DNA from: a virus
Strand: one strand, 5' to 3'
Length of the DNA stretch: 64,000 bases
Virus record (IMG/VR): IMGVR_UViG_3300009537_000007
Location: 1 to 64,000 of that record
Shown: positions 1,989 to 59,271 of the stretch, one piece after another
Position numbering within the stretch: the stretch's first letter is position 1
Layout of the letters: each line of letters begins with the position of its first letter
Made by a program: the position numbers and the translations under genes
The notes under the pieces: model-generated
What the model saw: the letters and a program-made list of their open reading frames with translations, nothing else
Told to the model about the DNA's origin: nothing
Databases searched by the model: none

Positions 1989-2684
1989 CTAATTCTTTTC
2001 ATGTTCGTCCCGGTAACTCAGCCAACGAACCCCATACAACTCCAGCCCACTCTTGAGGCGGGTTATCGCTTTTTCCCGTCCCATCCGGTGCCTGAGCCGC
2101 GCCGCCTTCACCGAAGCCCCGTCGATACAGATATCGATCACCAGGGGCAAATGCTGGTCCTGGGACCGGTGCATCTCATCCGCCCACGGTTTGTAGATAT
2201 GGTGATATCGATCTAAAACGGACTCTGACACCCGCAGACCATCAAAATGGCCGCTACCGCCGAGCCGGTCTGGATTCAAATTGCTACAACGAGCAGCCAC
2301 CGCCGATGTAACGGCCTCGAACAACCGCGCCAAAGACCTCGCTGATCTCTTGTGGTCCTCAGCCAAAACACCATTCTCGACCAACTTCTCAACCGGATCG
2401 TAACGTCCGGGCCTTACAACCATCTCTGCGGTCGGCCCGAAGAACTGCTGCCGGTGCGGATTTTCCTTGTCGGCATACTGGTTGATAAGATCGTTTAACT
2501 TCGTCGCTCTCTGTGATGCCCTTTCGGCCTCAGGACCGCCGGACCTCACCGCCCTCAGATAGTTATCCCTCAGATGCGCCGCATCATTCAACGCGCCGTG
2601 GAGCCGCATATCCAGCGCGGCCTTACGAGTCCTGTAAACCAGATCGAAAAACACATCCTCAACCGCTACCGCTGTGCCCCGCAT
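1989..2684 (-). CDS. hypothetical protein with C-terminal HTH-like segment
   Basis: 231-aa ORF downstream of the primase-helicase. C-terminal GASVKAARLRHRMGREKAITRLKSGLELY looks like a sigma region 4 / HTH helix pair. Start uncertain (alternative ATG at 2609). Confidence 0.55.
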   Translation of the reverse strand: MRGTAVAVEDVFFDLVYRTRKAALDMRLHGALNDAAHLRDNYLRAVRSGGPEAERASQRATKLNDLINQYADKENPHRQQFFGPTAEMVVRPGRYDPVEKLVENGVLAEDHKRSARSLARLFEAVTSAVAARCSNLNPDRLGGSGHFDGLRVSESVLDRYHHIYKPWADEMHRSQDQHLPLVIDICIDGASVKAARLRHRMGREKAITRLKSGLELYGVRWLSYRDEHEKN

Positions 2685-4497
2685 TTTTTTGCTCCAAATC
2701 CACGTAATGGTAATGCCCCTGCGGGCATTGGTTGCTTCGATACTGATAATTCTCGATGTTAAAGTGAAGCCTCACCCGCCCCGTCCAGTCGCCGTTGCGC
2801 TGCTTACTGACGTTCACCACGACACCCCCGGCATCCAAATACCGCTGCTCGTCTTCGGACAAGTCTTCATCGCTCTCTGCCCGCTCCCTCAGATTCTCCC
2901 AGTTTTTGTCACGCCATATCGATATAACATTAAACGCATTCGCCCCAATCTCCATAGCTCCCTTAACGTCTTCGATCTCCTGCGGGCCCGCACCGCGATC
3001 CCCCTTGCGGGCATGAGCGACGAAATGAACATGAACCACCCTATCGATAGCCCAGTCAACGACACGATACATCACCTGTTCCTGACCATTGTAATCATCG
3101 GACTCTATGCCGAGTCGCATCAGGGAATCGATCACAAACTGGTCACAGCCATACTTGGCGGCGGCATACTCGAAGGCCTCCAGCATCTCCTCAATCGAGG
3201 CCTTGCCCACCCGGTTGTAAACGACCAGACCGGGGTCCAGCCAAGCCAGGCATTGGTGGATATACTCCTCGGTGGGCCTGTCGGTGCCGGAAGTCTGCTT
3301 AACCATGCGCTTCAAGGTCTGCGGGGGGGCCATTTCCAAACTGGCCAGGCACACCCTGGAACCCTCCTTGATCCAGTAAACGATACAATCCGAAAGGATT
3401 TGTGACTTGCCGTGGCCAGAGGCCCCCGTCCAGATCGTAACCTCCCCCGGTCGGAAGATCACCTTATCGGTCAAGCTCCTGTATCTGAAGGAATATCCTA
3501 AATGCCGCCCCTCTTCCGGCCACAACAACCCCACAACGCTGGGCCCATAGTCTATTACCCGGGTCAGCGTTTCAGGGTCCAGCGTTACAGCCGCCGCAAT
3601 GGCTTCATCAATCTCTGCCTTCCGAACACCGCGCTGCAAACACTCGTTGGCATCTTTGTATGGAAGGGTTACAACCCGGCAACGGTGCCGCCCGAGCCTG
3701 CGACTGATCTCCTCCACCGCCGCCTTGCCCTCGGGATCGTTATCCAGGCACAGATAAATGGTTTCAAAACGGTCTAGATGCTCGTATTCGCTTTCAATCC
3801 AGTCCTGCTTACCGCCACCACCGCCGCCGAAAGGCACGGATACTGCGGGATACGAGTATGCCGCCATACTCATGGCGTCAATCTCGCCCTCGGTTATGTA
3901 GATTTCCCGGGTGTTGTCATCGACCGCCTGCCAGCCGAACAGTATTTTTTCGCAGCCCGGAGCCGTGGGGACCGGCTTCGCCCCGTCTTCCGCCAACCTG
4001 GTTTTAACCATAATCAACTCGCCCCCCCGGAGAAACGGGAAGACGATGTAATTCATCTGCTCACCAATCTTGTAAGCGCCCAAAACCTCTCCCGGGATAT
4101 TTCGATCTTCGACCAGATAATCCCTGACCCGGTTCCTGGGGGCCGAACATACCGGTTTAGGCGGCCTGACAAGCGGCCTTTCAGAAACGGGCCTGGTGTA
4201 AAACGGGGTTTCCACACCAAGCCACCCGCGAATGTCCTGAAGAGCCTCTACGACCGTTTTTTTCTGGACCTCTTTCCACAGGTCGATCAGATCGCCGCTA
4301 TCTCCGGTGGCAAAATCAGACCAGACCCCGGCTTTATTGCCCCTCAGACAAACCTTGAGGCTTTTTCCGGGCTCACCGCCGAGAGAGCCGACGCACCATT
4401 CCCCGCTTGCCGTCCTGCCGTTGGGTAACAGGTATTCACAGACCGACTGGGCCCGATCCGCCAACATGCGCTTGATTTCGTTGATGTTGGTCCTCAT
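2659..4497 (-). CDS. bifunctional DNA primase-helicase (TOPRIM + DnaB/T7 gp4-like)
   Basis: TOPRIM Glu (YITEGEIDAMS) and DxD (LDNDPEG). Helicase Walker A GASGHGKSQ, Walker B FVIDSL, and SKQRNGDWTG motif. Confidence 0.85.
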   Translation of the reverse strand: MRTNINEIKRMLADRAQSVCEYLLPNGRTASGEWCVGSLGGEPGKSLKVCLRGNKAGVWSDFATGDSGDLIDLWKEVQKKTVVEALQDIRGWLGVETPFYTRPVSERPLVRPPKPVCSAPRNRVRDYLVEDRNIPGEVLGAYKIGEQMNYIVFPFLRGGELIMVKTRLAEDGAKPVPTAPGCEKILFGWQAVDDNTREIYITEGEIDAMSMAAYSYPAVSVPFGGGGGGKQDWIESEYEHLDRFETIYLCLDNDPEGKAAVEEISRRLGRHRCRVVTLPYKDANECLQRGVRKAEIDEAIAAAVTLDPETLTRVIDYGPSVVGLLWPEEGRHLGYSFRYRSLTDKVIFRPGEVTIWTGASGHGKSQILSDCIVYWIKEGSRVCLASLEMAPPQTLKRMVKQTSGTDRPTEEYIHQCLAWLDPGLVVYNRVGKASIEEMLEAFEYAAAKYGCDQFVIDSLMRLGIESDDYNGQEQVMYRVVDWAIDRVVHVHFVAHARKGDRGAGPQEIEDVKGAMEIGANAFNVISIWRDKNWENLRERAESDEDLSEDEQRYLDAGGVVVNVSKQRNGDWTGRVRLHFNIENYQYRSNQCPQGHYHYVDLEQKNAGHSGSG

Positions 4498-4787: not shown

Positions 4788-4937
4788 TTTTTTCTCCTAT
4801 CACCGAGCCATTTAAACGTGGCCACAGCGTCATTAGGGTGGGGGGGGGCTAGTAGGGGACCCTTTACCCTCTAACACGCACCAGCGCGAGGCTGAGGGGC
4901 TCTCAGACGATTCTACGGGCACCCCATACCCCCCATT

Positions 4938-5642
4938 TCACACCTGCGCCTCCCGAATCGCGTCTTTCATCAATTGTTGCTGATCGCTGTATTCACGATC
5001 TCCGGCTTTTAGAACGCCGACAATCCATTCGGTCGGGTTTGATTTACCGGCGGCTTCCTGAATGACCCTGAACGCATCATCCGTTCCCTTCAACTTCCGA
5101 AGCTTCGTGATTAATCCACCGGACCCCCTTCCAAGAACCTTCCTGCCCGCATCGAATAAAATTTTCTCAGGCGACGAGTCGCCCTTTACGTTAGTAAAGG
5201 TAGAGTCTAGTTCTGGTTCTGGTTCTGCGTCGGGACTCCCGCTCTTTTTCTCGGGAGTCCTGTCAACACTCCCGTCAGCACTCTCGACACCACTCCTGTC
5301 GGGACTGTTGGTTTTCGCCGCTCCCTTACGTCCACCACTGGATTTCTTTTTCCATAAATCGAAGGCTTTTTCCGCTTCACTCATGGCGCGACTGTTGGCG
5401 AGACTCCCGTCGGGACTCCTGTCGAGTTTCCCGGCGACCACCAAATCATCTACATATTGCTGCCAGTCGTCCAGATCACCCAACATGAGAGGTAATTCAG
5501 TCGCCGGACACGGTTTTGCGAAATCCCATACATAGGCGCAAATGTCAAAGTAAACCGACTTGTGAATCCTGGTCATTCGTGATGTCCCGGCGAGCCAATC
5601 CGATGTGTAAAATGCTACATAACTGTGTCGTTTGTGGCCCAT
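4938..5642 (-). CDS. DUF1376 (YdaU-like) replication-associated phage protein
   Basis: N-terminus YVAFYTSDWLAGTSRMTRIHKSVYFDICAYVW matches my recollection of the DUF1376 pattern. Sits in the replication module. Confidence 0.55.
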   Translation of the reverse strand: MGHKRHSYVAFYTSDWLAGTSRMTRIHKSVYFDICAYVWDFAKPCPATELPLMLGDLDDWQQYVDDLVVAGKLDRSPDGSLANSRAMSEAEKAFDLWKKKSSGGRKGAAKTNSPDRSGVESADGSVDRTPEKKSGSPDAEPEPELDSTFTNVKGDSSPEKILFDAGRKVLGRGSGGLITKLRKLKGTDDAFRVIQEAAGKSNPTEWIVGVLKAGDREYSDQQQLMKDAIREAQV

Positions 5643-7638: not shown

Positions 7639-7949
7639 TTTACCCCCAATAATTCAAACCAAATCCTTTCGGGCACAACGTAAAGCGGCTTTCCGCGATC
7701 CGCCCGGACCACGAGAAAGTCATTGTCTGCAAGGGCTTGGAATAGCGCGGGGAGTTTCGCCCGCCGCTTAGCCTCCCCGATAAGGGGCGCGTCCCGTCCG
7801 GGAATATACACATCTATGTCGTGGGATTTGTCGGCTCCGAACTGGCCTAGGCGGGCGTCTATCCGCATGGCGGTTATGCCGCGTTCCTTGTGGGCATTAA
7901 CGGTGGCCCTTTCAAACGCGCTTCCCTTGTTCTTTGATGCGTTGGGCAT
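7635..7949 (-). CDS. Holliday-junction resolvase-like PD-(D/E)XK nuclease (Hjc-type)
   Basis: KGSAFERATVNAHKERG ... DIDVY ... IGEAKRR fits the Hjc-type KG-x-ER / D / E-x-K arrangement. Confidence 0.6.
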   Translation of the reverse strand: MPNASKNKGSAFERATVNAHKERGITAMRIDARLGQFGADKSHDIDVYIPGRDAPLIGEAKRRAKLPALFQALADNDFLVVRADRGKPLYVVPERIWFELLGVK

Positions 7950-7957
7950 CTAACCCC

Positions 7958-8134
7958 CTAGTTTTTAGCGGTTCCTGGGGTGAATTCTGACCACCCAATC
8001 TCCGGTAGCCAAACCCTGTCGCCAGCCCGTAGATCAAGTCCACTTGCCCATTCTAGTGCCACTTTTCGGCCTTGGGGGGCGGTTGTTTCCACATCGAACA
8101 GCGCCTCTATTTCCTTCGGGCAAACATGGTCCAT
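7958..8134 (-). CDS. hypothetical protein (58 aa)
   Basis: AAGGGGG 7 nt upstream of the ATG, immediately after structured element X1. Below the ORF-track cutoff. Confidence 0.45.
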   Translation of the reverse strand: MDHVCPKEIEALFDVETTAPQGRKVALEWASGLDLRAGDRVWLPEIGWSEFTPGTAKN

Positions 8135-8154
8135 TATCTAACCCCCTTAAATTA

Positions 8155-8260
8155 GGTGGAGCGCGGCACGGCGTCTGACTAAACCGCCGTGCTTGTTTCC
8201 TTGGTTGGCCGTTACCGGGAACCACCCGGCCCAAGGGAATAGAGGCTTCCTCCGCGCTCC
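8155..8260 (-). ncRNA. structured leader element X1 (about 106 nt, closed by GGAGCGCGG/CCGCGCUCC)
   Basis: 9-bp closing stem. Internal hairpins CCUUGG...CCAAGG, CCGGG-UGGUU-CCCGG and CACGGCG-(11 nt)-CGCCGUG. The 3' end is CGCUCCACCUAAUU followed by SD and ATG. Only noise-like ORFs across it. Confidence 0.45.
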
Positions 8261-8300
8261 GAGGCGGGAATTGAGGCGGCTACCTCGCTTCCCGCATGAA

Positions 8301-8618
8301 TTATTCCAATCCCTCACCTTCGGTGTATGTGATCGTGACGGGAACACAGGCTATTCTGTCTTTACAAGAAGATATGGTTGCCTCGCGCTTGTTGAGATAT
8401 AGTGCCATTGCGCGGGTTGGAGATGGATACACATTCGTCCACCGTGTTATGGTCTTGGGAGTGGGTTTGATACGGTATTCTAAATAAGAATGCCACAGCG
8501 GCTCACCAACCACAGACCTCCACTTATCCGTACCCGGCGCAAACGAATATTCAACCTCCGCGCCATCCAGCCACGCATCGAATACTACTTTGTGCTTCTT
8601 GATTCCCTCGCGGTTCAT
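8301..8618 (-). CDS. hypothetical protein (105 aa)
   Basis: GGAGG 6 nt upstream of the ATG at 8618, directly after element X2. Confidence 0.6.
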   Translation of the reverse strand: MNREGIKKHKVVFDAWLDGAEVEYSFAPGTDKWRSVVGEPLWHSYLEYRIKPTPKTITRWTNVYPSPTRAMALYLNKREATISSCKDRIACVPVTITYTEGEGLE

Positions 8619-8633
8619 TTCAACCTCCAATTA

Positions 8634-8738
8634 GGTGGAGCGGGCCGGACGCTACCCGGCTTATCGCCTACACGACTATCGGGGTGGACAATAACCAATA
8701 GCGAATTGGCACCTTCTGTTCCACACCACCGCCGCTCC
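8634..8738 (-). ncRNA. structured leader element X2 (about 105 nt, paralogue of X1)
   Basis: Closing stem GGAGCGG/CCGCUCC. An adjacent 5-bp/7-nt-loop hairpin GCCGG-GUAGCGU-CCGGC abuts the 3' strand, giving tRNA-like acceptor/T geometry. Same 3' tail CGCUCCACCUAAUU then SD and ATG. Confidence 0.45.
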
Positions 8739-8900
8739 ATAAATCTCTAAACTGGCGGGGGTGGGCTGTGCACCGCCCTTGTGGTCAAAACCACTAACCC
8801 CCAGACCTAGCCGTATCGAACGGCTTCCCCTTTGCGCCAGGGGCGCACTCCACGCTCGGCCCATAAATCTTTAAACCAAGATACCAGTGCTATCTCCTGA

Positions 8901-8922
8901 ATAAAAAGAGGGCCGGAGCCCT
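8901..8922 (-). terminator. intrinsic terminator downstream of the HTH regulator gene
   Basis: Minus-sense AGGGC-UCCG-GCCCU followed by CUUUUUAUU. Confidence 0.5.
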
Positions 8923-9000
8923 AAGGTGCTGCGCTCTTGAGGGGAGCTACAGATTTATTTCCGTGTAAATACAAGAAGAAAGGCGGTTGTTTAGAACGGC

Positions 9001-9234
9001 TCAAGAAACCTTCTTGTAAGATGAGGGGTCGGTTTCTCGCACTTTTTCCTTGTATTCGTCAATGTGTTTCATTACTCTATCCACCATCCGCAGGGAGCAG
9101 GAACGGCCACCACGAATGTCGGAAACGAAGTTGGGATCGCCGACCACTTCTATACCAAAGCGCGACGGCGGGACTTGATTTTTTCGCAGGAAAGCCTCCA
9201 CCCTCTCCACAAAAATGTTCTGAATGCTGTTCAT
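9001..9234 (-). CDS. HTH transcriptional regulator (repressor-like)
   Basis: MNSIQNIFVERVEAFLRKNQVPPSRFGIEVVGDPNFVSDIRGGRSCSLRMVDRVMKHI resembles small prophage regulators common in alphaproteobacteria. Divergent from the 9359 operon. Confidence 0.55.
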   Translation of the reverse strand: MNSIQNIFVERVEAFLRKNQVPPSRFGIEVVGDPNFVSDIRGGRSCSLRMVDRVMKHIDEYKEKVRETDPSSYKKVS

Positions 9235-9248
9235 GTGGTATATATTAA

Positions 9249-9261
9249 TAGGGAATTTCCT
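9249..9261. promoter_or_regulatory. palindrome site a (TAGGGAATTTCCT)
   Basis: Variant of TAGGAAATTTCCTA, located in the divergent control region. Confidence 0.4.
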
Positions 9262-9294
9262 CAGACGCAAGAAATTTATTTAGGTATTTTTTTG

Positions 9295-9323
9295 TTGCAA
9301 GAGTAGGAAAAATCCTTTACTAT
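9295..9323 (+). promoter_or_regulatory. sigma70-like promoter TTGCAA-N17-TACTAT for the 9359 operon
   Basis: The -35 TTGCAA (9295-9300) is self-complementary and could also serve a leftward promoter (TTGCAA-N16-TAAATT). The spacer contains palindrome site b. Confidence 0.4.
9304..9316. promoter_or_regulatory. palindrome site b (TAGGAAAAATCCT)
   Basis: Lies inside the spacer of the predicted rightward promoter. Confidence 0.4.
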
Positions 9324-13853: not shown

Positions 13854-14264
13854 ATGAAAGTTTACGTTCGCGTCGGCAACAATGCGCTTCACCCCGTAGG
13901 GGATGTGGCAGAGGAGTTCTTCGCCAAACTTAAGTGGGGCATGGATATGCTGGTCACAATATCCAGGCCTCGAAATCTAGCTCATCACCGCAAATTCTTT
14001 ACCATGGTCCACAAGGTTTTTCAGAACCAGGAAGTTTACAGAAGTGAGGATGATTTATTGGACGCTCTTAAAATAGCCATCGGCCATGTAAAGAGGATTA
14101 TCGTTAAGGGCGTAGAACACGTAATTCCCAAGTCAATTTCATTTGCCAAAATGGACCAAGATGAATTCGACGATTTTTACAAAAGAGCCGTTGATTTCGT
14201 AAGAACGGATGTGATCCCGGGCCTGGGTGTGGCTGAACTGGAAAATGAATTGGCTGGGTTCTGA
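13854..14264 (+). CDS. hypothetical phage protein (DUF1367-like)
   Basis: 136-aa ORF. RNLAHHRKFFTMVHKVF...SISFAKMDQDEFDDFY recalls DUF1367-type proteins (from memory). Confidence 0.5.
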   Translation: MKVYVRVGNNALHPVGDVAEEFFAKLKWGMDMLVTISRPRNLAHHRKFFTMVHKVFQNQEVYRSEDDLLDALKIAIGHVKRIIVKGVEHVIPKSISFAKMDQDEFDDFYKRAVDFVRTDVIPGLGVAELENELAGF

Positions 14265-15238
14265 TGCCGACTTATTATAGGCCTGGAGAGCGAAAGAACA
14301 TCAAGCACTGGATTGCCAGGGGGCGTATCCAGGGCGAAGAACACGAACACACGGCGCGGCAGGCGAAGAGCAGGAGAGATGCCCAAAGAAGCTGGGAACG
14401 ATACAAAGTAGCCATCATCGCTGCTAACGGCGGGCCCCAGGTAGGAGGCAAGACCTTTGGTGACGCCTATGTTTTATACAGGGCGACGGGAGGGCGCAGC
14501 CCCAACCAGATCAGATATATCGAAAGGATGCTGCCGGAACTGGAACACCTGCCCCTTGATGGCATAACAACCGGCATATTACACCGGCTTGCAATCGGCC
14601 TATACCCGGGCGCGGCCAATTCAACAAGGAACAGGCAGGTCTTGGTCCCCGCCCGTGCCGTCATCAACAAGGCTGCGGAAAGTGAATGGTGTTCACATAT
14701 CAGGGTAAGAAAGCTGCCTGAGGTGAAGCCAGCGAAGCGCAGGCCAGCCAAGGGCACAGAAGAATTGTTGCTGGAGAACACGGAAGGATACCAGCGTCTT
14801 TACCTCATGATGATATTTAGACAGGGGTGGAGAATGTCGGAAACGATAAATCTTAACTGGAGTGATATTGATCTGCAAAGACGAGAATTTAGTCTTTATA
14901 TACCAAAATCCAAGACCACAAAGCCGGTGCCAATGCACAACGATGTATTCGAGTTGCTGGTGAACATAGAGGTTAAAGAGGGGCCGGTGTTTCCGTGGGC
15001 TCACCCGTCAAGTGTAAACGAATGGCTGACAAGGTTGAGGAAAAGACTTGGGGTAAAATTTACGTCGCACATGGCTCGACATGAGTGGGCATCTGCTCGC
15101 AATCAAGACGGCTTTACTCCTTCCGACATGGTGCAGGCGGGGTCTTGGACTAGTCCGGCTTCGTTATCTTCTTATCTTGATGTGGACATGGATCATGCGA
15201 AGAATGTTCTGCATAGAAGGAGGGGAGCGGTGGCATGA
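14264..15238 (+). CDS. int: tyrosine recombinase / phage integrase
   Basis: RQGWRMSETINL (Arg), HMARHEWAS (HxxR), GSWTSPASLSSYLDV (catalytic Tyr region). Confidence 0.85.
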   Translation: MPTYYRPGERKNIKHWIARGRIQGEEHEHTARQAKSRRDAQRSWERYKVAIIAANGGPQVGGKTFGDAYVLYRATGGRSPNQIRYIERMLPELEHLPLDGITTGILHRLAIGLYPGAANSTRNRQVLVPARAVINKAAESEWCSHIRVRKLPEVKPAKRRPAKGTEELLLENTEGYQRLYLMMIFRQGWRMSETINLNWSDIDLQRREFSLYIPKSKTTKPVPMHNDVFELLVNIEVKEGPVFPWAHPSSVNEWLTRLRKRLGVKFTSHMARHEWASARNQDGFTPSDMVQAGSWTSPASLSSYLDVDMDHAKNVLHRRRGAVA

Positions 15239-23735: not shown

Positions 23736-24850
23736 TATTGCAGCGCCTTCACATGGAGATGGGAGAAGCCATTGCTTTTCGTAATGAAGAAGAAGAAATC
23801 ATCTCCATCTGTGGTTGAAATCGTGTCTCCGTCCACCAGAGTAAATCCAGATGTGGTGATCGTTCCGGCGCTTGCGTTGTTCGTATATTGAATGATAATG
23901 GTGCAACTGTTCGTCGGCGGAGCCAACGTGTGCGCCCCACCGTTGACGGCGTATTGCATATTGCCGTTAGCTTCATCGGGGGTGAATGTCCCGCTGGATT
24001 TGGTCCCGGCGTTGTAATCCGTGGCCGCAAAACCAACCGTTAGAACATCTGCCGTATCTGCGTAGAGCGTGTCCACATCAACTGCCTTACCACTTGCCCT
24101 TACGTAATTGGTGCAGCGATATGTCCCCGCGCCGTATTCGATAAACTCAGCCTCATCCCCAGCGGCAGTGGTAATGTTAACACCGCCCGGAAGAATCAGG
24201 TTCGTCGCATGATGAGTAAGGGTGAGGGCTCCGTCGAAGTGCAGCTTGATCTGAGTTCCAGCGCCGCCGGTAGTGTTGATCGATGTAATCGTGGTGGTGC
24301 CGGTAACGTCGAAGTAATTGCCGTCCGTTAAGACTGCAAGGGCCGTGGCACTAGCCACATCGGCCCCCTGTGACCACTGTATTTGCGCCCCATTACAATC
24401 CAGATCGCCACCGAGTTGTGGGGTGGTGTCTTCTACTATGTTGGAAAGGGAGTCGGCAATGTAATCAAGTCCTGCGATAACATTGGTGCCGTCGCAGTAG
24501 AGCATGGTCTTCTTGCCCTGCGTCACCGCGATGCCGGACCCGGCGGCGGTCTTAACCGTCAGGGTATAGGCCCCGGAGGTGTTGTTGAAGATGAAGTAAA
24601 CCTTGTCGCTGGTAGGAACGATGACGTTGATGTTGCCTGTAAGTGCCCCGTTATATTCGTGCCAGGCGTTCAGAGCCTCGGCAGAAGTTAAAGTAACATC
24701 AGACGATCCCGCAACACTCTTGGACAGCCGTGCGGCAACAGCATCATCGATATTATCCAGGACGGCGTTGAGCGCGGTGCCCCAGGTATTATTGTTATCG
24801 CCCGTTCCTTGTTTATCTAACGAAAGGGCGTCAGTATATGTGCTTGCCAT
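23735..24850 (-). CDS. tail fibre protein
   Basis: N-terminus ...LSLDKQGTGDNNNTWGTALNAVLDNIDDAV is a typical fibre N-terminal adaptor. G/T/A-rich beta-repeat body. Lies downstream of the giant gene, as T7 gp17 does. Confidence 0.6.
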   Translation of the reverse strand: MASTYTDALSLDKQGTGDNNNTWGTALNAVLDNIDDAVAARLSKSVAGSSDVTLTSAEALNAWHEYNGALTGNINVIVPTSDKVYFIFNNTSGAYTLTVKTAAGSGIAVTQGKKTMLYCDGTNVIAGLDYIADSLSNIVEDTTPQLGGDLDCNGAQIQWSQGADVASATALAVLTDGNYFDVTGTTTITSINTTGGAGTQIKLHFDGALTLTHHATNLILPGGVNITTAAGDEAEFIEYGAGTYRCTNYVRASGKAVDVDTLYADTADVLTVGFAATDYNAGTKSSGTFTPDEANGNMQYAVNGGAHTLAPPTNSCTIIIQYTNNASAGTITTSGFTLVDGDTISTTDGDDFFFFITKSNGFSHLHVKALQ

Positions 24851-27800
24851 TAGTCAGCCTCAAATTGGGTTTTCAGTTGTGCCATCGCCTTAGCCAGGCG
24901 CATTTTCACTTTGCGAACCTCGTCTTTCCTCTCACGCTTCTCCGTGCCGGTCATACCTTTGTGACTGCTTATCGCACGCATCATCCTGTTTAATTTTCGC
25001 ATCTGAATGTCTGCGTTGTTCAGGGATTTCCGCATGGCCAGCTTGTTCCTGTTCTCCATCAGGAGTTCCTGGGCATACTTGACTTCACCATCAGCGATTA
25101 GTTTTTGGATGGTGTCGTGGAGGCTCTGCGCTTCTTCGCGCATCTCATAGAACTGATGAATGGCCTTGGAAGACTTGGGCACTTCCGGTCCCACAAACCT
25201 ACGCAGGGCCACGATATCGGACGGCATCATGGCTTCCTTGCTTGGATAGTCGCCGACTCCCATCATCATCCAGTCTGCCAGATTCAGGCCATATGCTCCT
25301 ATGTTGGCGAAATAGCCCTCAATCACGGTTTCGATATACTTGGGTGAAACATTAGTCATGCGACCGATGTGCCTGGCCGCAATACTGGTGTTGTCATCAT
25401 ATTGTTCTGCGGGCTGTAGCCGCTCTTCCCATGGCTGGAGAATCTTGCGCTCCCGGAACTCGTCCTTGTTCGAGTAAATGCGAACAATTGGAACCGCTGC
25501 CTGCGGCACGATACTGAACCTGAACATCTCGCTCATGATCCACCTCATGCGCTGGAGAAATTCCTTACCCTCCCCCTTCTTGAGAAGATCAAGCGTCCGT
25601 TCCGGGATGCTGCCGAACAGGGCACCGACCTCGAACGGCTTGGGCAGCTTAAGCGGCTCCTTCAGGCCGAGGGCGTCACTGATGCCGTAGAACCACCAGT
25701 AGGTGTCGCGCTGGTAATCCGTCAAATCGTTGAACCGCTCATCGTCTTCGTTACTGAGCCAGAGCGCGGTCGTGGCAGCCATGACCAAACCAGCCTTTAT
25801 CATGAAGGCGCGGTTGAGCTTCGCGGTTTGCTCCTGACCTTCCCGCGCGCCACGGTAGGTTCGATACAAACCCTGAAGGCCAGCATTGAAAAACGGCACC
25901 GTATCAGCAAGGAAACGGATCAGGAAATAGTCTCCACGCATGCCGAAATCAGTGCTGATTTCGCGGGCCTGGTAAGCTGCCTCCATGAGCCCGACACCAT
26001 CCTTGCGGAGCTTCTTGAAAGCCCCGACGCGAGTGGAGTATTCGAGTGTGGATTCAATTCGTTGGAGCGCTCCGACATAATCGGACGGATTTTCGAGAAT
26101 GCTCGCTTTTTCACCACGGATGAATTTCTTCACGACACTCTTCAGGCTTGGCCTGTCAGCCTCGAACAGGGCCGACATTCCGGCTCCGGCCTGCAGAAAT
26201 TCATGCCAGTATTCATCCCCGCCAACCCAGTTGCCGTCCTTGTCGATACGGGGAAGTTGAGACTTGATGCCTTTGATACTGTCGATAAGCGGCTTGAATC
26301 CCTTGTGAGAAATCACCGAGGCGTGCATGGTGTCGCGCACGAAGTTGGCCGCCTGGAAGCTGGGGTCCAGCCCGACCATCATGGTGAGCAGGTTCTTGGC
26401 TTTCTTGAGCGGCTTTATTAGTGCATGCGTGTCCTTGCGATGCAGCATGGTAAACGACCGGAACAACATCGGATCGTCAACTTCGTAGAACTCAACCTTG
26501 CCATCCTCGACCACCGACACGATGTTATCGCCTTTCGGGGCATTACCGAGTGACCACAGGACGCGCAGGGCACCGGGATTGATGTCGTCTTCCGGTGTCA
26601 CCTCCAACCCCTGCTCATAGAGATCATCCACCATCTGCTTGTTCGTTACCAGGGCCCTTTTGGCCTTCCTGCCGATCCTGCTCATGAACAGATCGCCGGA
26701 TTTTCTGTTGAGATCAACGGCGCGGCGCATGACTTCGTTTTTTATGCTTGCTTCGATCAGACGATGTATGTTGTGTTCGTAATTGATTAGCGGATGTTCG
26801 ATCTTGCTCTTGCCGCCGGTAAGCCGGTAAAAGTTTGGATGTTGCCCGGAAAAACCCAGTCTGGACCTGGGGCTCTTGACACCCTTGCCGTTTTCTGTGA
26901 TGCGGAAGAAAGGCACATAGTTCTTGTGCATCTCATCGAAAAACGCCCGAGTATCAGCATCCAGCAGGCCGGACTCCTGTGCAAAGTCGAGTATCTTGCC
27001 GTTATAGGTCTGCAGGTCGTCGAATAGTCCGGCGAAGTCGGGGTGCTTGCGGTCCAGGGCGTCGATGGCAGCCGCAGTATCGTGGTTTGCGAACAGGGCT
27101 TCCCGGCCAACCTTTACCAAGTTTCCATTTACGTCATAAACTTTCTTGCCGCCATCCATGGCTTTAAGCTCTTCGGCTCGGCGAGAGGCCAGATAAACCT
27201 CGAACTCTTCGGCTCGCTCACCGCCGATTTCGTCCATGATTCCCATGGGAGCCTTTACACCGGCATCGATGGTGGTGGTCCCCTCCTTCCAGACCGGAGC
27301 CCCCAGGAACATTGCTTCAAAAATCAGGTCGTTGATGCCTCGGGTCAACCGGGCCAGCTTATAGGCGCTGCGGGAGTCCTCATAAAGCTGCTGGACTCCA
27401 TCGACCGCCAGCCGGGATTTCTCCTCCATAACCTTTATGAAGTGGAGATCGTCTGCTACCGACTGCTTGGCGCGGTCCACGAACTTGTCGGCCAGGACCT
27501 CGGAAACCCTCTCTTTCCATGGCTGCTTCTTGTCGGCACCGATATTATTGAGGATGCCCTTGACGATTCCTGCCTCTTTGGCAGTCAGGGAGTATTGCTC
27601 GCTGCCAGGCATTCCGGGTAGTGCCGTGCCCTTGCGCCTGCCGACTTCGCCGCTCTCGACTCGCCCTAATACGTCCTCAATGGTCTGAAAGCCAAGGCCA
27701 CGCAACATATTGCCCGTCCTCTGCAGGAAGTCGGTGAGCCGTTTGAACATGCGCTTGAAGCCTGGCGGGAAATTCTCGCCGCGCCGGTAAGACGAAAAGG

Positions 27801-30800
27801 CGTCGGCAATGGCTTCTTCGTTTCGTTTTTCTTCATTGAGATGACCGTATTTGGCATCGATGTCGTATTTGTGCCGCCACGAACTCTCCGCTTTCTTTCG
27901 CAGCAGATTCCATTCCTTGCGGGTAAACATGCCCATGCTTCGCAGAGCATGAATGGCTTCGTGGCGCAGGGTGGCAGCCGGATTGTCGTAGTTTAGGGCA
28001 ACTGTAATCAGTTGTTCTATATCCCTATACGAACCCCTGACGGTGCGTTCCTTACCGTCAACGACACGGAGCATTCTATCCACCACCCCGAGGCGTGCGT
28101 TAGGTGCAATCTGTTCGAGGATGGACTGAAGCCCCTTAACGACCCTGGCGCGTTCCTTATCTTGTCCAGGCGAAAAAATACCCGCCTCCTGGGCGGGCTT
28201 GTCCGAGAGTTTCATGCTCTCTTCGCCGGTCGGTTCCTCCGCTTCACCATCTTGCGGAGATTCCTCTTTCTGCCGTTCGGATTTAGCCAGTTTCTCCGCA
28301 AGGTTTCTTAGCGTTTCGTTGCCGTTATGGTGGGCGAAAAATGAAACACCGTGTTCGGTCTGGATCGCCTCAATCAATTTGGCAAATTCCGTTCTCGGAA
28401 AGCGAAGATACCAGATATCCTGTTCTTCTCCTCCGGTCGGCGGCCTGCCCTTCTGACGCATCATATTGCCGTGCAGGTCCTTCTCCGGGTCGCCCTCATA
28501 CCAGGTAGATTGTTCGGACTTACCAACGATATCACGGATGACTTGGGATTTTCTGATCGCCCCACGATTTTCGCCACCACGCTTGGAAATCAGTCCGAGA
28601 TAATAAGAGTGTTCCCCGCTCCACACGTTCTTTTTGAGTTTGTTGTTCCAAAAAGGATCACGCGGGTTTCTGACGGTAATAAACATCTCACCGACATTAT
28701 CGCCGATGAACCCGATGCTGCCGCCCTCGGACATATACTTCTCAAGATTTGTCGCCCAATCGAGCTTGATCGGAGCCTTCAAGACATCATCGGCGGGCGG
28801 CAAGAGAATTCCGCGCTCGACATCCCCGTTTTCATTCGTGTAACGAACGATCATCGGGCGGCGCTCTTCCGGGAGCCTCGGATCAACCTTACCGAACAGT
28901 TCCTCGTATTTCTTAAACGACCGCAGCGCGTTCCCCCTGAGAATCCAGCGCGTCTCCTTGTCTTTCTTGTCACCGACCAGCATATTGGCACCCTCCTTAA
29001 GAGAGGGCGGAGTTCCATCAGACCCCACAACCCGGCCAAGATGGAAATGCGGCCCCCACCTGCTGGTGTTGCCTGAACTATCGGCCATATCCTTGGGACG
29101 CATTTTAACCCATACGCGCTGCCCGCGACTCATGGCGACGGTTATTTGCAGGCTCTCGTTAATACCGGAAGCGGCACTGAATGGATCGCGGTCTGTTTCA
29201 AGCCCTTTGTCCTTGATGTCGATAATCACGCCCTTGGCGATGAGCCCACCACTCCCGCCTTGGGAATTATCTTTAATATCGACAACGGAACCGACCCCGA
29301 GGAACTTAACCGCCCTTAGCGCCTTGCTGATCTTCTCCATGCGCTCATTAATGATACGCTCCGCACCACGTTTCCGGGTGAGCATTCTTTCATAAGCCTC
29401 TTTTTCTTCCTTCAGCTTGGCCTTGGCTTCCCTTAAAACCTCCTTGCTGTTTTTTATCGTCTCTTCCTGTTGTTCGATATTCTCGTCCAGCTCGCCAACC
29501 CTCTGAAAGGCCGCAGCCTTACCTGCCTCATCTGCATTCTTGGCTTCTTCGCGGGCTGTCTTTTTCTGCTCCTTCAGGTCAACCATCCTGGTGTTAGCCT
29601 CATCAACGGCGCTGTCAGCAACATTGACTGCCGTCTCGGATTCTTCGACAACCCTGGCCTGCGGCTCCGCTTCCTTTTCGACTTCCGCGATGGTATCGGT
29701 GTATTCACGGTTTTCGTTATCGATGCGGCGCTGAATATCGGCCAGCAATTTTTCATTATAGCGGGCCGCGCCCTCCTCAGTCTCCCTGAGAGACTTGTCG
29801 TTAACCTCAAGTGGTGCGGGCCCCTTGATTTCAGTGTTGGCCCAGATTTTTTCCAAAACCTGGATTGGCCTGAACGGTTGGGTAATAGGATTCATGCTGA
29901 CCTGTTCAGCAATAACCCCCTTCTGGAATTCACTGTCGGTTCCGGTTTCTTCCGCCAGTCCCATAGACTGAATCACCGATGTCTCAAGATCGTAAAGCGG
30001 CACATCCCCGATGGAAATACCGGCAGCCTCCAGCGCCTCGATGCGATTGGTATAGTTCTCGATTATCGATGTGTAGATTTCATCTTGAGACGGAAGTTCG
30101 ATCTGCCCGCCGTCACGGTCAACAACATACGAACTGTTGAACACCGGCAGCATGGAAAGTCTGTTGGTGATCTTGCCGATAGCGGCCTCTACCGATCCGC
30201 TTTGCATGGATCGCAACACCTTCTCCATAGAAAGCCCGACATATTTAAGCGCATCACGCATTCTGCTCTCTGACGCGAAGGCTTCAACAATCGCATCCAC
30301 ACCATATTCATTGATGAAGTCAACTTCATCCTGTGCGAGAGCAGACCCGCTGGCCCCTGTGGTCTGGGCCGACATCTTGGACACCTTGCGCTGGAGGGCG
30401 GCGTTATACCGTTTCTCCTGCGGGACATTGGATGTCAGGACGGAATAACGAGGCATTTTAACCATGCCGGTGCGGAAGATGCGCCCGAGTATCTGGACAT
30501 GATTAAAGATGTCCAATTCCGGCTGCCCAACGATCATCCACCTGCCGGACTGGTCGTTGAATTCCGCTGCCGCATGCAGGCTGATGCCTTCAGCCGCAGA
30601 GCGGTTGATAATCAGGGCGTGATACTCACTGTCGTTATTGAAGCTGTTCATGGCCTGTTGGTCAGATAGCTTGGAGTTGTCCCTGGCCTCCAGCTTCATG
30701 GTTTCCATGTTGACCTGGATACTGCGCCCCGTGATCTCTCCCATCTTAATGCCGCGCTTGGCGAGTTCGTGAACAATGTAGTCAATGGGCGAAAGCGGGA

Positions 30801-38578: not shown

Positions 38579-39016
38579 TCAGAAATCCTCTATGAACATT
38601 TCACCGACCGGCGTAAATAAGCGCCGGAATAGCTTGTTTTTTTTCTCCACCCCCCCTGGCGAGAAAACACCGACAGCCAGAGGCATGCCGACCGTCTTCG
38701 CAAAATCCTTAACCATCTTGAGCAATACAAGGGCGTGCCTGGATCGCCTGTATCCCTTCTTCACGAAGGTCCAGGAATCCTGCAGATGCCAATCTTCCGA
38801 ATACCAAAACTGGCTTGGACCAATACCGACTGAGGCGATAATGTCGTCACCGTCACGGGCAACGAAAATTGCCCCCTCCGTCATGAACCTTTCGATCTCG
38901 TCCACGACCTTTATGGGAGCCAGCCTGGCTATACCGACCTCCTCATACATGAGCATGAGCAAGTCATAAATCTTCTTTTCCTCACCCCTGACGGCAACCC
39001 CGTAAGTTACGGTCAC
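38579..39016 (-). CDS. GNAT-like fold protein (145 aa, tentative)
   Basis: IFVARDGDDIIASVGI ... KKGYRRSRHALVLLKMVKDFAKTVG resembles GNAT beta4/motif A. Confidence 0.4.
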   Translation of the reverse strand: MTVTYGVAVRGEEKKIYDLLMLMYEEVGIARLAPIKVVDEIERFMTEGAIFVARDGDDIIASVGIGPSQFWYSEDWHLQDSWTFVKKGYRRSRHALVLLKMVKDFAKTVGMPLAVGVFSPGGVEKKNKLFRRLFTPVGEMFIEDF

Positions 39017-58630: not shown

Positions 58631-58921
58631 CTACTGGTCTGCCGTATGACGCACATCAGCGGCAGAGATGGCTTCGTTTATGGCGTCAATGAGCTTCTGA
58701 GCCTTGCGGGAGTTCAAGATGACCTCGGCATGGTAGATGTCATCACGCCCCAGAATAAACAGGACAGCCTGCTTCACCCGCTCTCTGAACCGTGAGTTCC
58801 GGCGGTCGGAAATTACGTCGAAGTAAATATCCTTGTCGGGAAAATCAGGATCATCCTCAAACGAAACGACGACCTGATGCTGCACCAATTCGCAGTTGCA
58901 GAAAAATACCCTGTGTTCCAC
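58631..58921 (-). CDS. hypothetical protein (96 aa, GTG start)
   Basis: AGGAGG 7 nt upstream of the GTG at 58921. The longer ORF-track N-terminus is translated tRNA sequence. Confidence 0.55.
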   Translation of the reverse strand: MEHRVFFCNCELVQHQVVVSFEDDPDFPDKDIYFDVISDRRNSRFRERVKQAVLFILGRDDIYHAEVILNSRKAQKLIDAINEAISAADVRHTADQ

Positions 58922-58937: not shown

Positions 58938-59014
58938 TGGTCGGGGGGGCTGGATTTGAACCAGCGGCCCTTCGCTCCCAAAGCGAATGCGCTACCAGAC
59001 TGCGCCACACCCCG
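58938..59014 (-). tRNA. tRNA-Pro (anticodon UGG), CCA encoded
   Basis: Hand-folded cloverleaf: acceptor CGGGGUG/CCCCCCG (one mismatch), D stem GCGC/GCGC, anticodon stem UUCGC/GCGAA with loop UUUGGGA, T arm GCUGG-UUCAAAU-CCAGC, then A-CCA. Confidence 0.85.
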
Positions 59015-59022
59015 ATAATTTT

Positions 59023-59097
59023 TGGAGCCGGTTACAGGAGTCGAACCCGTGCCTCATCCTTACGAAAGGTGCGTGCTGCCGTTAACACTAAACCGGC
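59023..59097 (-). tRNA. tRNA-Thr (anticodon CGU), CCA encoded
   Basis: Acceptor GCCGGUU/AACCGGC, anticodon loop UUCGUAA, T arm ACGGG-UUCGACU-CCUGU, then U-CCA. One C-A mismatch in the anticodon stem. Confidence 0.7.
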
Positions 59098-59271
59098 AGC
59101 AGGTGTTCGATCTTCCATTTCCAACTCCTCGTTCGATAAAAGGGTGGAGCGCAGCGGAATTCCACCGCTGTTCGGCGCACAGGGACCAGGGAAGAAATCC
59201 CGTTCGCCGTCGATCCGGCGCACCCCTCAGGGAAACTGGCAAACCCTCTCAGGCGCTGCCCGATCCACTCC

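What the first reader, a model, noticed from the sequence alone, without database searches (positions are those of the whole stretch)
8135..8760. Two paralogous ~105-nt closed-stem leader RNAs ending in CGCUCCACCUAAUU immediately before SD and ATG
Two stretches, 8155..8260 and 8634..8738 (minus sense), carry only noise-like ORFs.
- **Shared ends:** each is closed by GGAGCG(C/G)GG / CC(G/C)CGCUCC and followed by ACCUAAUU, then an SD and the start of a small gene (7958..8134 and 8301..8618).
- **Shared 14-mer:** AATTAGGTGGAGCG (plus sense) is identical in both copies (8150-8163, 8629-8642).
- **Multi-helix junctions:** X2 has a 5-bp/7-nt-loop hairpin abutting the 3' closing strand. With the A-CC tail this mimics tRNA acceptor/T-arm geometry. 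The ...GCUCCACC 3' sequence also resembles the tRNA-Ala/tmRNA end.
- **Possible roles:** tRNA-like processing signals (RNase P / RNase Z) that cut the polycistron, put-like antiterminator RNAs, or translational operators for the downstream genes.
Basis: seen in the sequence. Interest (0 to 1): 0.65.

Follow-up and report, generated by a model that had tools for sequence, protein, structure and literature searches.

The report
tRNA-shaped phage leader RNA family
The two look-alike stretches are real folded RNA modules, and one of them belongs to a widespread family of tRNA-shaped RNAs, absent from Rfam 15, that sits in early-gene leaders and tRNA clusters of many temperate phages and whose job is unknown.

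Summary
X1 (8260..8150, minus) and X2 (8738..8629, minus) share GGAGCG at the 5' end and an exact 14-mer CGCUCCACCUAAUU at the 3' end. Each folds into a closed multi-helix junction and stops just before an SD and ATG. Their interiors are unrelated.

Following the conserved ends led to a large family. At least 120 IMG/VR phage contigs, several cultured phages (POI1126, PotUPM1, Persinger, Orimi01/Orisa) and E. coli prophages carry the same design:
- a 7-bp closing helix P1;
- a 2-nt linker;
- hairpin P2 (GCGUG-GAAAGCAGA-CACGC);
- a variable core of 20-250 nt;
- hairpin P3 (GCCGGG-GUAGCG-UCCGGC), which abuts the P1 3' strand.

P1 and P2 covary strongly. A covariance model built without any window sequence finds X2 at 40.9 bits (E 6e-7). 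It does not find X1, nor X4, a third look-alike (59271..59143) next to the window's two tRNA genes.

Rfam 15, ARAGORN and a literature search by sequence find nothing. Members lie in early-operon leaders beside repressor genes, or inside tRNA arrays at tRNA-like spacing.

Best guess: tRNA-shaped RNAs excised by tRNA-processing enzymes, which also cuts the mRNA just before the SD. Function is unproven.

The parts
8629..8738 (-). X2, a diverged member of the phage RNA family. P1 5' strand GGAGCGG is at 8738..8732. The P2 position holds an enlarged arm. P3 hairpin GCCGGG-UAGCG-UCCGGC is at 8660..8644. P1 3' strand CCGCUCC is at 8643..8637, and the tail ACC-UAAUU at 8636..8629.
   Evidence: Fold. 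Family model R2 scores 40.9 bits, E 6e-7 on the minus strand and only 6.8 bits on the plus strand. Its homologue in L012 scores 81 bits.
8150..8260 (-). X1, a look-alike of X2. P1 is GGAGCGCG (8260..8253) paired with CGCGCUCC (8165..8158). A small hairpin GAGG-AAG-CCUC sits at the P2 position, followed by a long central arm. The 3' hairpin GCACGGCG-GUUUAGUCAGA-CGCCGUGC (8192..8166) abuts P1. The tail is ACC-UAAUU (8157..8150).
   Evidence: MFE -54.8 kcal/mol, z -4.0. It is the best non-self hit of model R1, built from X2 and L012B (15.8 bits, E 0.12). Family model R2 does not find it.
59143..59271 (-). X4, a third look-alike. It starts directly after the stop codon (59272) of a 98-aa ORF. P1 is GGAGUG (59271..59266) paired with CGCUCC (59151..59146). 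The 3' hairpin CAGCGG-UGGAAUU-CCGCUG (59170..59152) abuts P1. The tail is ACC (59145..59143) followed by CUUUUAU. tRNA-Thr begins 45 nt downstream.
   Evidence: Sequence. Fold -66.6 kcal/mol, z -3.1, a four-way junction. GCTCCACC occurs 8 times in the window against 2.5 expected. R2 does not find it.
8753..8860 (-). X3, a structured stretch directly upstream of X2. Its 3' half folds as GGGGGU..ACCCCC enclosing two hairpins and is followed by G-CCA. It is flanked by the direct repeat GUUUARAGAUUUAUGG (8876..8861 and 8752..8737). Membership in the family is unproven.
   Evidence: Fold (z -0.95, not significant). Repeat.
8264..8295 (-). Stable hairpin GCGGGAA..UUCCCGC, lying between the stop of the 105-aa gene and X1 and lacking a U tract. 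It could act as a 3'-end protector for the upstream mRNA piece if X1 is cut at its 5' side.
   Evidence: -19.6 kcal/mol, z -4.2. The protective role is inference.
8909..8922 (-). Terminator-like hairpin AGGGCUCCGGCCCU followed by CUUUUUAUU, after the 89-aa first ORF (9270..9001) and upstream of X3 and X2.
8301..8618 (-). 105-aa gene served by the X2 leader. The SD GGAGG is at 8628..8624.
   Evidence: ORF; PHROG 15048. In its homologues elsewhere (51% and 39% identity) the neighbouring genes overlap it and there is no leader element.
7958..8134 (-). 58-aa gene served by the X1 leader. The SD AAGGGGG is at 8148..8142. Its nt +16..+32 are complementary (15 of 17) to X1 nt 15-31.
   Evidence: pair I2; 0 of 200 shuffles reach 15 of 17.
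4832..4934 (-). X0, a weak candidate. A stem GGGGGG/CCCCCC closes the stretch and is followed by ACC-CUAAUGA, in the gap upstream of a 97-aa ORF.
   Evidence: Fold z -1.4. R1 scores it 7.2 bits, which is noise level.
58938..59097 (-). Genuine tRNA-Thr and tRNA-Pro. tRNA-Pro ends in CCA and is followed by AUC-AGGAGG-AGAGAGG-GUG, the start of a 96-aa gene (58921..58631). This is the same layout as X1 and X2.
   Evidence: (PHROG 23381, E 9e-7).

Best explanation
**What it is.** X2 is a diverged copy of a widespread phage RNA with the outline of a tRNA:
- a 7-bp closing helix P1;
- a 2-nt linker;
- a hairpin at the D-arm position (P2);
- a core that can be almost any length;
- a hairpin at the T-arm position (P3) that stacks on the closing helix.

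X1 and X4 keep the closing helix sequence, the abutting 3' hairpin and the ACC tail. They have lost, or never had, the conserved loops.

**How it probably works.** The modules are transcribed as part of the minus-strand operons.
1. The host tRNA-processing enzymes recognise them as they recognise the true tRNAs of this phage.
2. RNase P cuts at the 5' side of the closing helix.
3. RNase E, RNase Z or exonucleases act in the A/U-rich trailer after ACC.
4. This releases a compact stable RNA and cuts the polycistronic message a few bases before the SD of the next gene.
5. The upstream piece ends in a protective hairpin (8295..8264 before X1).

**Shown versus inferred.** The fold, the family, the covariation and the genomic contexts are shown. 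Processing, and whatever the released RNA does, are inferred.
For: **The family is real.**
- 103 of 123 copies have a 7-bp P1 partner. In the 40 aligned members that partner ends exactly 2 nt before the conserved P2.
- In alignment A5 (40 sequences) P1 is 100% paired and all 7 pairs change on both sides. P2 is 97% paired and 4 of 5 pairs covary. Slid controls pair at 31-43%.
- RNAalifold finds the same three helices on its own.

**X2 is a member.** Model R2 gives 40.9 bits, E 6e-7, on the minus strand only. L012B scores 81 bits.

**tRNA-like features.**
- The 7-bp helix, 2-nt linker and D- and T-position hairpins are seen directly.
- 13 of 94 members have tRNA genes within 500 nt. 17 of those 18 tRNAs are on the same strand, and four lie at +6 or +7 nt. 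In POI1126 the order is tRNA-Met, element, tRNA-Gln.
- X4 lies 45 nt before tRNA-Thr.
- Closing helix plus abutting hairpin gives about 12 stacked bp in X2, X4, L012A and L012B. All window copies carry ACC.
- A review (PMC11143913) states that RNase P uses the 12-bp acceptor/T stack as a measuring device. It also states that RNase P pairs with D73-C74-C75, cleaves acceptor/T-stem-loop model hairpins, and cleaves phage M3 RNA, C4 antisense RNA and some mRNAs.
- An abutting hairpin of at least 5 bp arises in only 3-4% of shuffles per element. It is present, with a different sequence, in X1, X2, X4 and L012A.

**Same layout after a real tRNA.** tRNA-Pro is followed by CCA-AUC-AGGAGG-7 nt-GUG.
Against: - No transcript data exist; no sequencing run holds this DNA. 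Nothing shows processing.
- tRNA detectors reject every copy: ARAGORN and the Rfam tRNA model at E up to 10 in tiny search spaces. The conserved loops are not D- or T-loop consensus.
- In the family the ACC tail is present in only 24 of 94 members. In many members the flanks extend P1 to 10-17 bp, leaving no free RCC.
- X1 stacks 16 bp, not 12.
- The strongly conserved P2 and P3 loops are more than processing would need. They point to a specific partner that this explanation does not name.
- X1 and X4 fail the family model. They could be unrelated look-alikes or decayed copies.
- The generic descriptor '7-bp stem + abutting hairpin + ACC' occurs 1-2 times per shuffled window.
Confidence: 0.4

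Rival explanations
1. The element is a functional RNA in its own right, either stable and trans-acting or acting in cis on the transcription complex. Its conserved P2 and P3 loops would bind a conserved host or phage partner such as RNA polymerase, the ribosome, a tRNA-binding enzyme or a tRNA-targeting defence nuclease. Its position before an SD would then be incidental.
For: The loops GAAAGCAGA and GGUAGCGU are nearly invariant across phages of Pseudomonas, Ochrobactrum/Brucella, E. coli and many uncultured hosts, while the stems covary and the core varies from 20 to 250 nt. The element also occurs inside tRNA arrays with no ORF directly downstream.
Against: X2 has lost the P2 hairpin, and X1 and X4 lack both conserved loops, so at least in this window the loops are dispensable. 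No partner is identified, and no protein is consistently nearby.
Confidence: 0.25
2. The element is an uncut cis-acting leader. The closed domain would set the stability or translation of the gene that follows, like the structured, RNase III-sensitive leader before lambda N. It could do this by holding the anti-SD-like CUCC in P1 so that the SD stays free, or by giving a 5' stabiliser.
For: - 34 of 94 members are followed within 120 nt by an SD and start codon.
- In 6 loci an N-like antiterminator gene (PHROG 271) lies downstream, at a median of 27 nt.
- In E. coli 30EVA1 the element sits just before the first gene of the PL-type operon.
- In X2, removing the 5' strand lets CUCCA pair with UGGAG of the SD.
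- X1 nt 15-31 pair with codons 6-11 of its ORF.
Against: Predicted SD accessibility hardly changes with or without P1: 0.58 against 0.55 for X2. Members inside tRNA arrays have no ORF to regulate. Homologues of the 105-aa gene do without any leader.
Confidence: 0.18
3. The element is a put- or nut-like processive antitermination RNA that modifies RNA polymerase as it leaves the early promoter.
For: It lies in early-operon leaders next to CI-like repressors. It is a structured RNA transcribed early.
Against: In the window and in E. coli 30EVA1 a terminator-like hairpin lies upstream of the element, not downstream. In 30EVA1 a separate hairpin followed by UGCUUUUUAACAA, which is boxA-like from my own knowledge, already occupies the nut position. 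The element also occurs in tRNA arrays of an N4-like phage. It has no resemblance to the two-hairpin put design.
Confidence: 0.07
4. X1 and X4, and perhaps X2, are decaying relics, either of tRNA genes or of family copies. On this reading the shared 14-19 nt are a recombination scar from cassette insertion rather than a selected RNA feature.
For: X1 and X4 fail the family model. The 58-aa gene is itself bracketed by a 12-nt direct repeat, AGGGGGTTAGAT (family D11), which shows gene insertion at RBS-level microhomology. Relatives of the phage lack the elements.
Against: P1 pairing is intact in all three copies, with compensatory differences: C-G against G-C at pair 7, and U·G in X4. Each keeps a stable abutting hairpin of different sequence, which has a 3-4% chance each. 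X1 and X4 are unusually stable (z -4.0 and -3.1).
Confidence: 0.08
5. The element acts in DNA, or the stretches encode small proteins. The DNA version would be a recombination site, a cassette boundary or a single-strand origin.
For: The P1 sequence is its own reverse complement in form. ORFs of 41-78 aa cross X2 and L012A/B and read ..RPAPPN...
Against: The family model scores one strand only, 40.9 against 6.8 bits. 17 of 18 neighbouring tRNAs are on the same strand. The frames over the conserved ends differ between copies, and X1's ORF runs out of frame into the next gene.
Confidence: 0.02

Closest known systems
tRNA (Rfam RF00005) and phage tRNA arrays
   Same: A 7-bp closing helix, a 2-nt linker, a hairpin at the D position and a hairpin at the T position abutting the 3' strand. 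An ACC tail is frequent. Members sit in tRNA arrays on the same strand at 6-7 nt spacing.
   Different: There are no D-loop or T-loop consensus sequences and no anticodon arm. The core is 20-250 nt. ARAGORN and the Rfam tRNA model reject every copy. In many members the flanks extend the closing helix.
Non-tRNA RNase P substrates of phages: C4 antisense RNA of P1/P7 (and P4 CI RNA, from my own knowledge), phage M3 RNA
   Same: These are small structured RNAs embedded in the leader of an early or immunity operon and cut out by RNase P through an acceptor-like helix and an RCC(A) tail (PMC11143913 lists C4 and M3 as substrates).
   Different: There is no Rfam C4 hit at E up to 1-10. No loop-to-target complementarity was found, apart from the X1-specific 15-of-17 match to its own ORF. 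The conserved loops are different.
T4 'species 1 and 2' stable RNAs in the tRNA cluster (my own knowledge; the catalogue of T-even tRNA-like molecules is cited in PMC11143913)
   Same: Phage-encoded tRNA-like stable RNAs of unknown function, co-located and presumably co-processed with tRNAs.
   Different: No sequence relation was tested or known. The present family is mostly in temperate phages and early leaders.
Lambda N leader and nutL, and HK022 put (my own knowledge)
   Same: The position: between the early promoter next to the repressor gene and the first early gene, which is sometimes an N-like gene.
   Different: There is no boxA/boxB or two-hairpin put design. In the window and in E. 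coli 30EVA1 the element lies after a terminator-like hairpin. It also occurs in tRNA arrays.
Mitochondrial 'tRNA punctuation' of polycistronic transcripts (my own knowledge)
   Same: tRNA-shaped units between coding regions would direct RNase P and RNase Z cuts that liberate the mRNAs.
   Different: That system uses real tRNAs. Here processing is only inferred.

Membership tests
New phage RNA family (model R2: P1-CG-P2-core-P3) | A significant score with a covariance model built from 40 IMG/VR and phage members, with no window sequence included | tested here: met
   X2 scores 40.9 bits, E 6e-7, at 8742..8633 on the minus strand. L012B scores 81 bits, L075 91, L076 58.5.
New phage RNA family (model R2) | The same test applied to X1 and X4 | tested here: not met
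   Neither appears at E up to 10 with filters off. X1 is found only by the X2+L012B model, at 15.8 bits, E 0.12.
New phage RNA family (model R2) | Conserved P2 hairpin GCGUG-GAAAGCAGA-CACGC placed 2 nt after P1 | tested here: not met
   In X2 three of the five P2 pairs are non-standard in the model alignment; the MFE fold draws a longer arm at that position. X1 has only GAGG-AAG-CCUC there.
New phage RNA family (model R2) | P3 hairpin GCCGGG-GUAGCG-UCCGGC abutting the P1 3' strand | tested here: met
   X2 has GCCGGG-UAGCG-UCCGGC, one loop base shorter. X1 and X4 have an abutting hairpin of unrelated sequence.
tRNA (RF00005 / ARAGORN) | Detection by tRNA models: cloverleaf with D- and T-loop consensus and an anticodon arm | tested here: not met
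   ARAGORN finds none. The Rfam tRNA model gives no hit at E up to 10 on 451- and 771-nt stretches. Relaxed ARAGORN calls are noise: 55 in the window against 27-51 in shuffles.
tRNA (architecture only) | 7-bp acceptor, 2-nt linker, D-position hairpin, and T-position hairpin abutting the acceptor 3' strand | tested here: met
   Alignment A5 and its pair counts.
Bacterial RNase P substrate | About 12 bp of stacked acceptor and T helix | tested here: inconclusive
   X2 has 7+5/6, X4 6+6, L012B 7+5/6, L012A 7+5, but X1 has 8+8. The criterion comes from PMC11143913.
Bacterial RNase P substrate | A free 3' R-C-C after the helix, for pairing with the P15 loop | tested here: inconclusive
   ACC is present in X1, X2 and X4, but in only 24 of 94 family members, and it is often paired with the 5' flank.
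Bacterial RNase P substrate | Actual cleavage at the 5' end of the helix | not testable with these tools
   No RNA data are available; the look-up of sequencing runs returned nothing.
C4 antisense RNA and any other Rfam 15 family | A match to the family covariance model | tested here: not met
   No match overlaps any element at E up to 10 in the window, up to 10 in L012 or up to 1 in ten member loci.
put / nut antitermination sites | Lies between the early promoter and the first terminator, with boxA/boxB or two put hairpins | tested here: not met
   A terminator-like hairpin precedes the element in the window and in E. coli 30EVA1. The design differs.

The most novel reading that the evidence does not exclude
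The finding exposes a previously uncatalogued, widespread class of phage non-coding RNA. It is a tRNA-shaped scaffold whose two invariant loops (GAAAGCAGA and GGUAGCGU) bind a conserved cellular or phage partner. The class would act early in infection or at the lysis-lysogeny switch, for example as a decoy for tRNA-directed defence nucleases or as a modulator of the transcription or translation machinery. X1, X2 and X4 would be three differently decayed or specialised copies in one genome.
Probability: 0.35. Interest if true: 0.85.

Novelty: new variant of a known kind. Interest (0 to 1): 0.68.

Why it matters
If the family is as undescribed as Rfam 15 and the literature search suggest, it is one of the commoner structured RNAs of temperate phages of Proteobacteria. 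It occurs in at least 120 IMG/VR contigs and in E. coli, Pseudomonas and Ochrobactrum/Brucella phages, and it has textbook covariation.

It sits at the heart of the immunity and early region. Knowing what it does would bear on how early phage messages are cut, stabilised or controlled, and on how phages exploit tRNA-shaped RNAs.

There is also a practical gain. Several deposited phage genomes annotate a 'hypothetical protein' across it, for example Orimi01 CDS 38907-39380, or leave it blank. A covariance model would correct those annotations.

Tried and rejected
**Searches with no useful result.**
- DNA similarity of the region to INPHARED phages: none.
- Exact protein look-up and sequencing-run search: nothing.
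- Homologues of the 105-aa gene (L001-L004): no leader elements, genes overlap.
- Relatives found by the large terminase (L067-L072, best 65% identity): no X4 homologue. L067 has only a non-significant closed stem at the syntenic place.
- Genome scan with GGAGCG..CGCTCCACCTAAT: 26 hits, with only L012 clearly real and L022 possible.
- Metagenome scan with the stricter GGAGCGS..SCGCTCCACCTAAT: 11 hits, none convincing.

**Tests that proved uninformative.**
- Generic tRNA-minihelix descriptor: as frequent in shuffles as in the window, so useless.
- ARAGORN at an 80% threshold, with or without introns: noise.
- RNAduplex of whole elements against downstream RNA: uninformative.
- MAFFT alignment of X1, X2, X4 and L012A/B: the 5' ends were misaligned, so it was not used for a model.
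- Crude gene calling to list intergenic gaps: too noisy.

**Ideas rejected.**
- An SD-sequestration switch: predicted accessibility does not change.
- Integron attC, MITE, retron, tmRNA and riboswitch readings. The reasons are absent core sites, unrelated interiors, no reverse transcriptase, no tmRNA call, and a core of variable length.
Full report
**Setting.** The window is nearly the whole of a 64.5-kb temperate phage-like contig.
- It encodes an integrase (14264-15238), a primase/helicase (4497..2659), large and small terminase subunits, a capsid protein, a 3817-aa giant protein, and tRNA-Thr and tRNA-Pro.
- It has no DNA relative among deposited phages.
- The finding lies in a minus-strand early operon that starts near 9300, opposite two ParB-like genes.
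- Genes there are tightly packed except for the gaps 9000..8619, 8300..8135 and 4937..4788.

**Checking the observation.**
- The 14-mer is exact at 8150-8163 and 8629-8642 and occurs nowhere else.
- On the minus strand both elements start with GGAGCG, end with CGCUCCACCUAAUU, and run into an SD and ATG.
- X1 folds as a closed four-way junction (-54.8 kcal/mol, z -4.0). X2 also closes (-44 kcal/mol, z -1.9).
- The interiors are not alike: interior alignment z is -0.6 against 4.1 for the whole elements.
- ORFs cross the elements, but the frame over the conserved ends differs between copies, so conservation is at nucleotide level.
- Rfam and ARAGORN find nothing here.

**More copies in the window.**
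- GCTCCACC is over-represented: 8 occurrences against 2.5 expected.
- One further copy closes a third module, X4 (59271..59143). It starts right after a stop codon and has P1 GGAGUG/CGCUCC. A different hairpin abuts the 3' strand, followed by ACC, and tRNA-Thr begins 45 nt downstream (z -3.1).
- The genuine tRNA-Pro is followed by CCA-AUC-AGGAGG-7 nt-GUG of a 96-aa gene, the same layout as X1 and X2.
- Weaker candidates are X3 (8860..8753) and X0 (4934..4832).

**From two copies to a family.**
1. A pattern scan of GTDB genomes gave 26 hits, about the chance level. One of them, L012, is a prophage end in a Pseudomonadota MAG. It shares 10 nt at the 5' end and about 33 of 35 nt at the 3' end with X2, around an unrelated core. 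It is preceded by a 72-nt cloverleaf-like module ending in G-CCA.
2. BLAST of that locus against deposited phages and plasmids hit unannotated DNA in four places. These are Ochrobactrum phage POI1126, a Brucella phage-plasmid, Pseudomonas phage PotUPM1 and the Orimi/Orisa phages.
3. There the closing helix has quite different sequences (AGAACGG/CCGUUCU, GCAGAAG/CUUCUGC), while two hairpins are conserved.
5. Of 123 copies, 103 have a perfect or near-perfect 7-bp partner. In the 40 aligned members it ends exactly 2 nt before the conserved 5' hairpin. There are 94 distinct elements of 60-304 nt.

**Structure of the family.** In a 40-sequence alignment (A5):
- P1 is paired in 100% of cells and all seven pairs change on both sides.
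- P2 is paired in 97% and four of five pairs covary.
- P3 is invariant because the search pattern required it.
- Sliding the partners drops pairing to 31-43%.

The P1 5' strand was located by complementarity, but its fixed distance from the independently conserved P2 shows that the result is not circular. RNAalifold predicts the same three helices unaided.

The design is a 7-bp helix, 2 nt, a D-position hairpin, a core of any length, and a T-position hairpin abutting the 3' strand. That is the outline of a tRNA. The loops (GAAAGCAGA, GGUAGCGU) are not tRNA loops, and tRNA models reject the elements.

**Membership of the window copies.**
- Model R2, built without window sequences, finds X2 at 40.9 bits (E 6e-7). 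This was a filter-free search of both strands; the plus strand scores 6.8 bits.
- R2 finds neither X1 nor X4.
- L012B (81 bits), L075 (91), L076 (58.5) and L074 (31) are members.
- In X2 the P2 hairpin is replaced by a larger arm.
- X1 is recovered only by a model of X2 plus L012B (15.8 bits, E 0.12, the best non-self hit).
- X1 and X4 therefore share with X2 the P1 sequence, the abutting hairpin (3-4% chance each) and the ACC tail, but not the family's conserved loops.

**Context of the family.**
- 13 of 94 members have tRNA genes within 500 nt. 17 of those 18 tRNAs are on the same strand, and four lie at +6 or +7 nt.
- ACC follows P1 in 24 of 94. 34 of 94 are followed within 120 nt by an SD and start codon.
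- The commonest neighbour is a CI-like repressor about 1.3 kb upstream. In six loci an N-like antiterminator gene follows at a median of 27 nt.
- In the lambdoid prophage of E. coli 30EVA1 the order is: cI-like gene, rex-position gene, operator/promoter region, hairpin plus UGCUUUUUAACAA, about 430 nt, the element, first gene, then gam-bet-exo.
- No Rfam 15 family matches the element in ten member loci. A full-text search for the conserved sequences found no paper.

**Interpretation.** The RNA-level, strand-specific, covarying structure is established. What it does is not.
- I favour excision by the tRNA-processing machinery. This would also cut the message just before the SD, and the hairpin at 8295..8264 would protect the upstream piece. 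The grounds are the tRNA outline, the tRNA-array contexts, the ACC tails of the window copies, and the parallel with tRNA-Pro. RNase P is known to use the 12-bp acceptor/T stack and the R73-C74-C75 contact, and to cleave phage C4 and M3 RNAs and some mRNAs (PMC11143913).
- Against this, ACC is absent from most members, P1 is often extended by the flanks, and the invariant loops call for a specific partner.
- Rival readings are a loop-dependent functional RNA, an uncut translational or stability leader, an antitermination RNA, relics, and a DNA site. They are listed with their tests in the Rival explanations section.

**An X1-specific feature.** X1 nt 15-31 are complementary (15 of 17, 0 of 200 shuffles) to codons 6-11 of its own ORF. 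In a longer context this pairing competes with the closed fold.

Noticed in passing
window 8876..8861 and 8752..8737 (minus): A 16-nt direct repeat, GTTTARAGATTTATGG, brackets X3 and directly precedes X2. It contains an ATG in both copies and an RNase E-like A/U-rich stretch. It could be a spacer between tandem modules, an operator or a promoter. No sigma-70 match was found.
   Followed up: partly
window 8147..8136 and 7959..7948 (minus): The 12-nt repeat AGGGGGTTAGAT (SD plus spacer) brackets the whole 58-aa gene. This looks like insertion of that gene by recombination at RBS-level microhomology.
   Followed up: no
window 8246..8230 versus 8119..8103 (minus): The X1 5' region is complementary (15 of 17) to codons 6-11 of the 58-aa ORF, a level no shuffle out of 200 reached. 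In a 216-nt context this pairing replaces the closed X1 fold in the MFE structure.
   Followed up: partly
window 8922..8909 (minus); L197 4056-4090: In both the window and the E. coli 30EVA1 prophage, a short G+C hairpin followed by a U-rich run lies upstream of the element. In L197 the run reads UGCUUUUUAACAA, one base away from the rrn boxA as I remember it, so these 'terminators' may be nut-like sites.
   Followed up: no
L012 5713-5785: A 72-nt cloverleaf-like module (AGAGCGG..UCGCUCU-G-CCA) lies directly upstream of the L012 family member, and both are preceded by AACAAC. tRNA detectors and model R2 do not call it. A partial tRNA 3' half at 5557-5627 (minus) marks a prophage end.
   Followed up: partly
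L022 1-242: A 46-nt tandem repeat (5.3 copies) in a Deltaproteobacteria MAG. Each unit carries the hairpin GGAGCG-UAA-CGCUCC followed by ACC(U/A)AAU, and the array lies upstream of a 480-aa protein with a weak match to a tail-assembly family. It may be a minimal relative of the X closing helix or a coincidence.
   Followed up: partly
L076 (Pseudomonas phage Orimi01) 1208-1681 and about 1035-1150: The annotated 'hypothetical protein' CDS overlaps the 230-nt family member and is probably not a gene. Upstream in the same roughly 650-nt leader is a second tRNA-like structure with a 14-bp closing helix and a canonical GGGUUCGAAUCCC T arm.
   Followed up: no
L046 2020-2230; L047 3391-3469: Two odd tRNA features in IMG/VR phages. 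One is a 3' tRNA half (..GGUUCGAGUCCGGCCCGCUCCACC) directly followed by what looks like a 5' half (GGGGCGGUAGUGUAACGG..), possibly a permuted or split tRNA. The other is a 79-nt 'tRNA-???' with a four-base anticodon call and G3·U70.
   Followed up: no
window 24850-36303 (minus): A 3817-aa ORF with no PDB sequence match and only C-terminal PHROG matches of unknown function. It is not recognisably an N4-type virion RNA polymerase.
   Followed up: partly
L073 (Ochrobactrum phage POI1126) 1130-1606: tRNA-Met, the family member and tRNA-Gln all lie in a stretch with no annotation in the deposited genome.
   Followed up: yes
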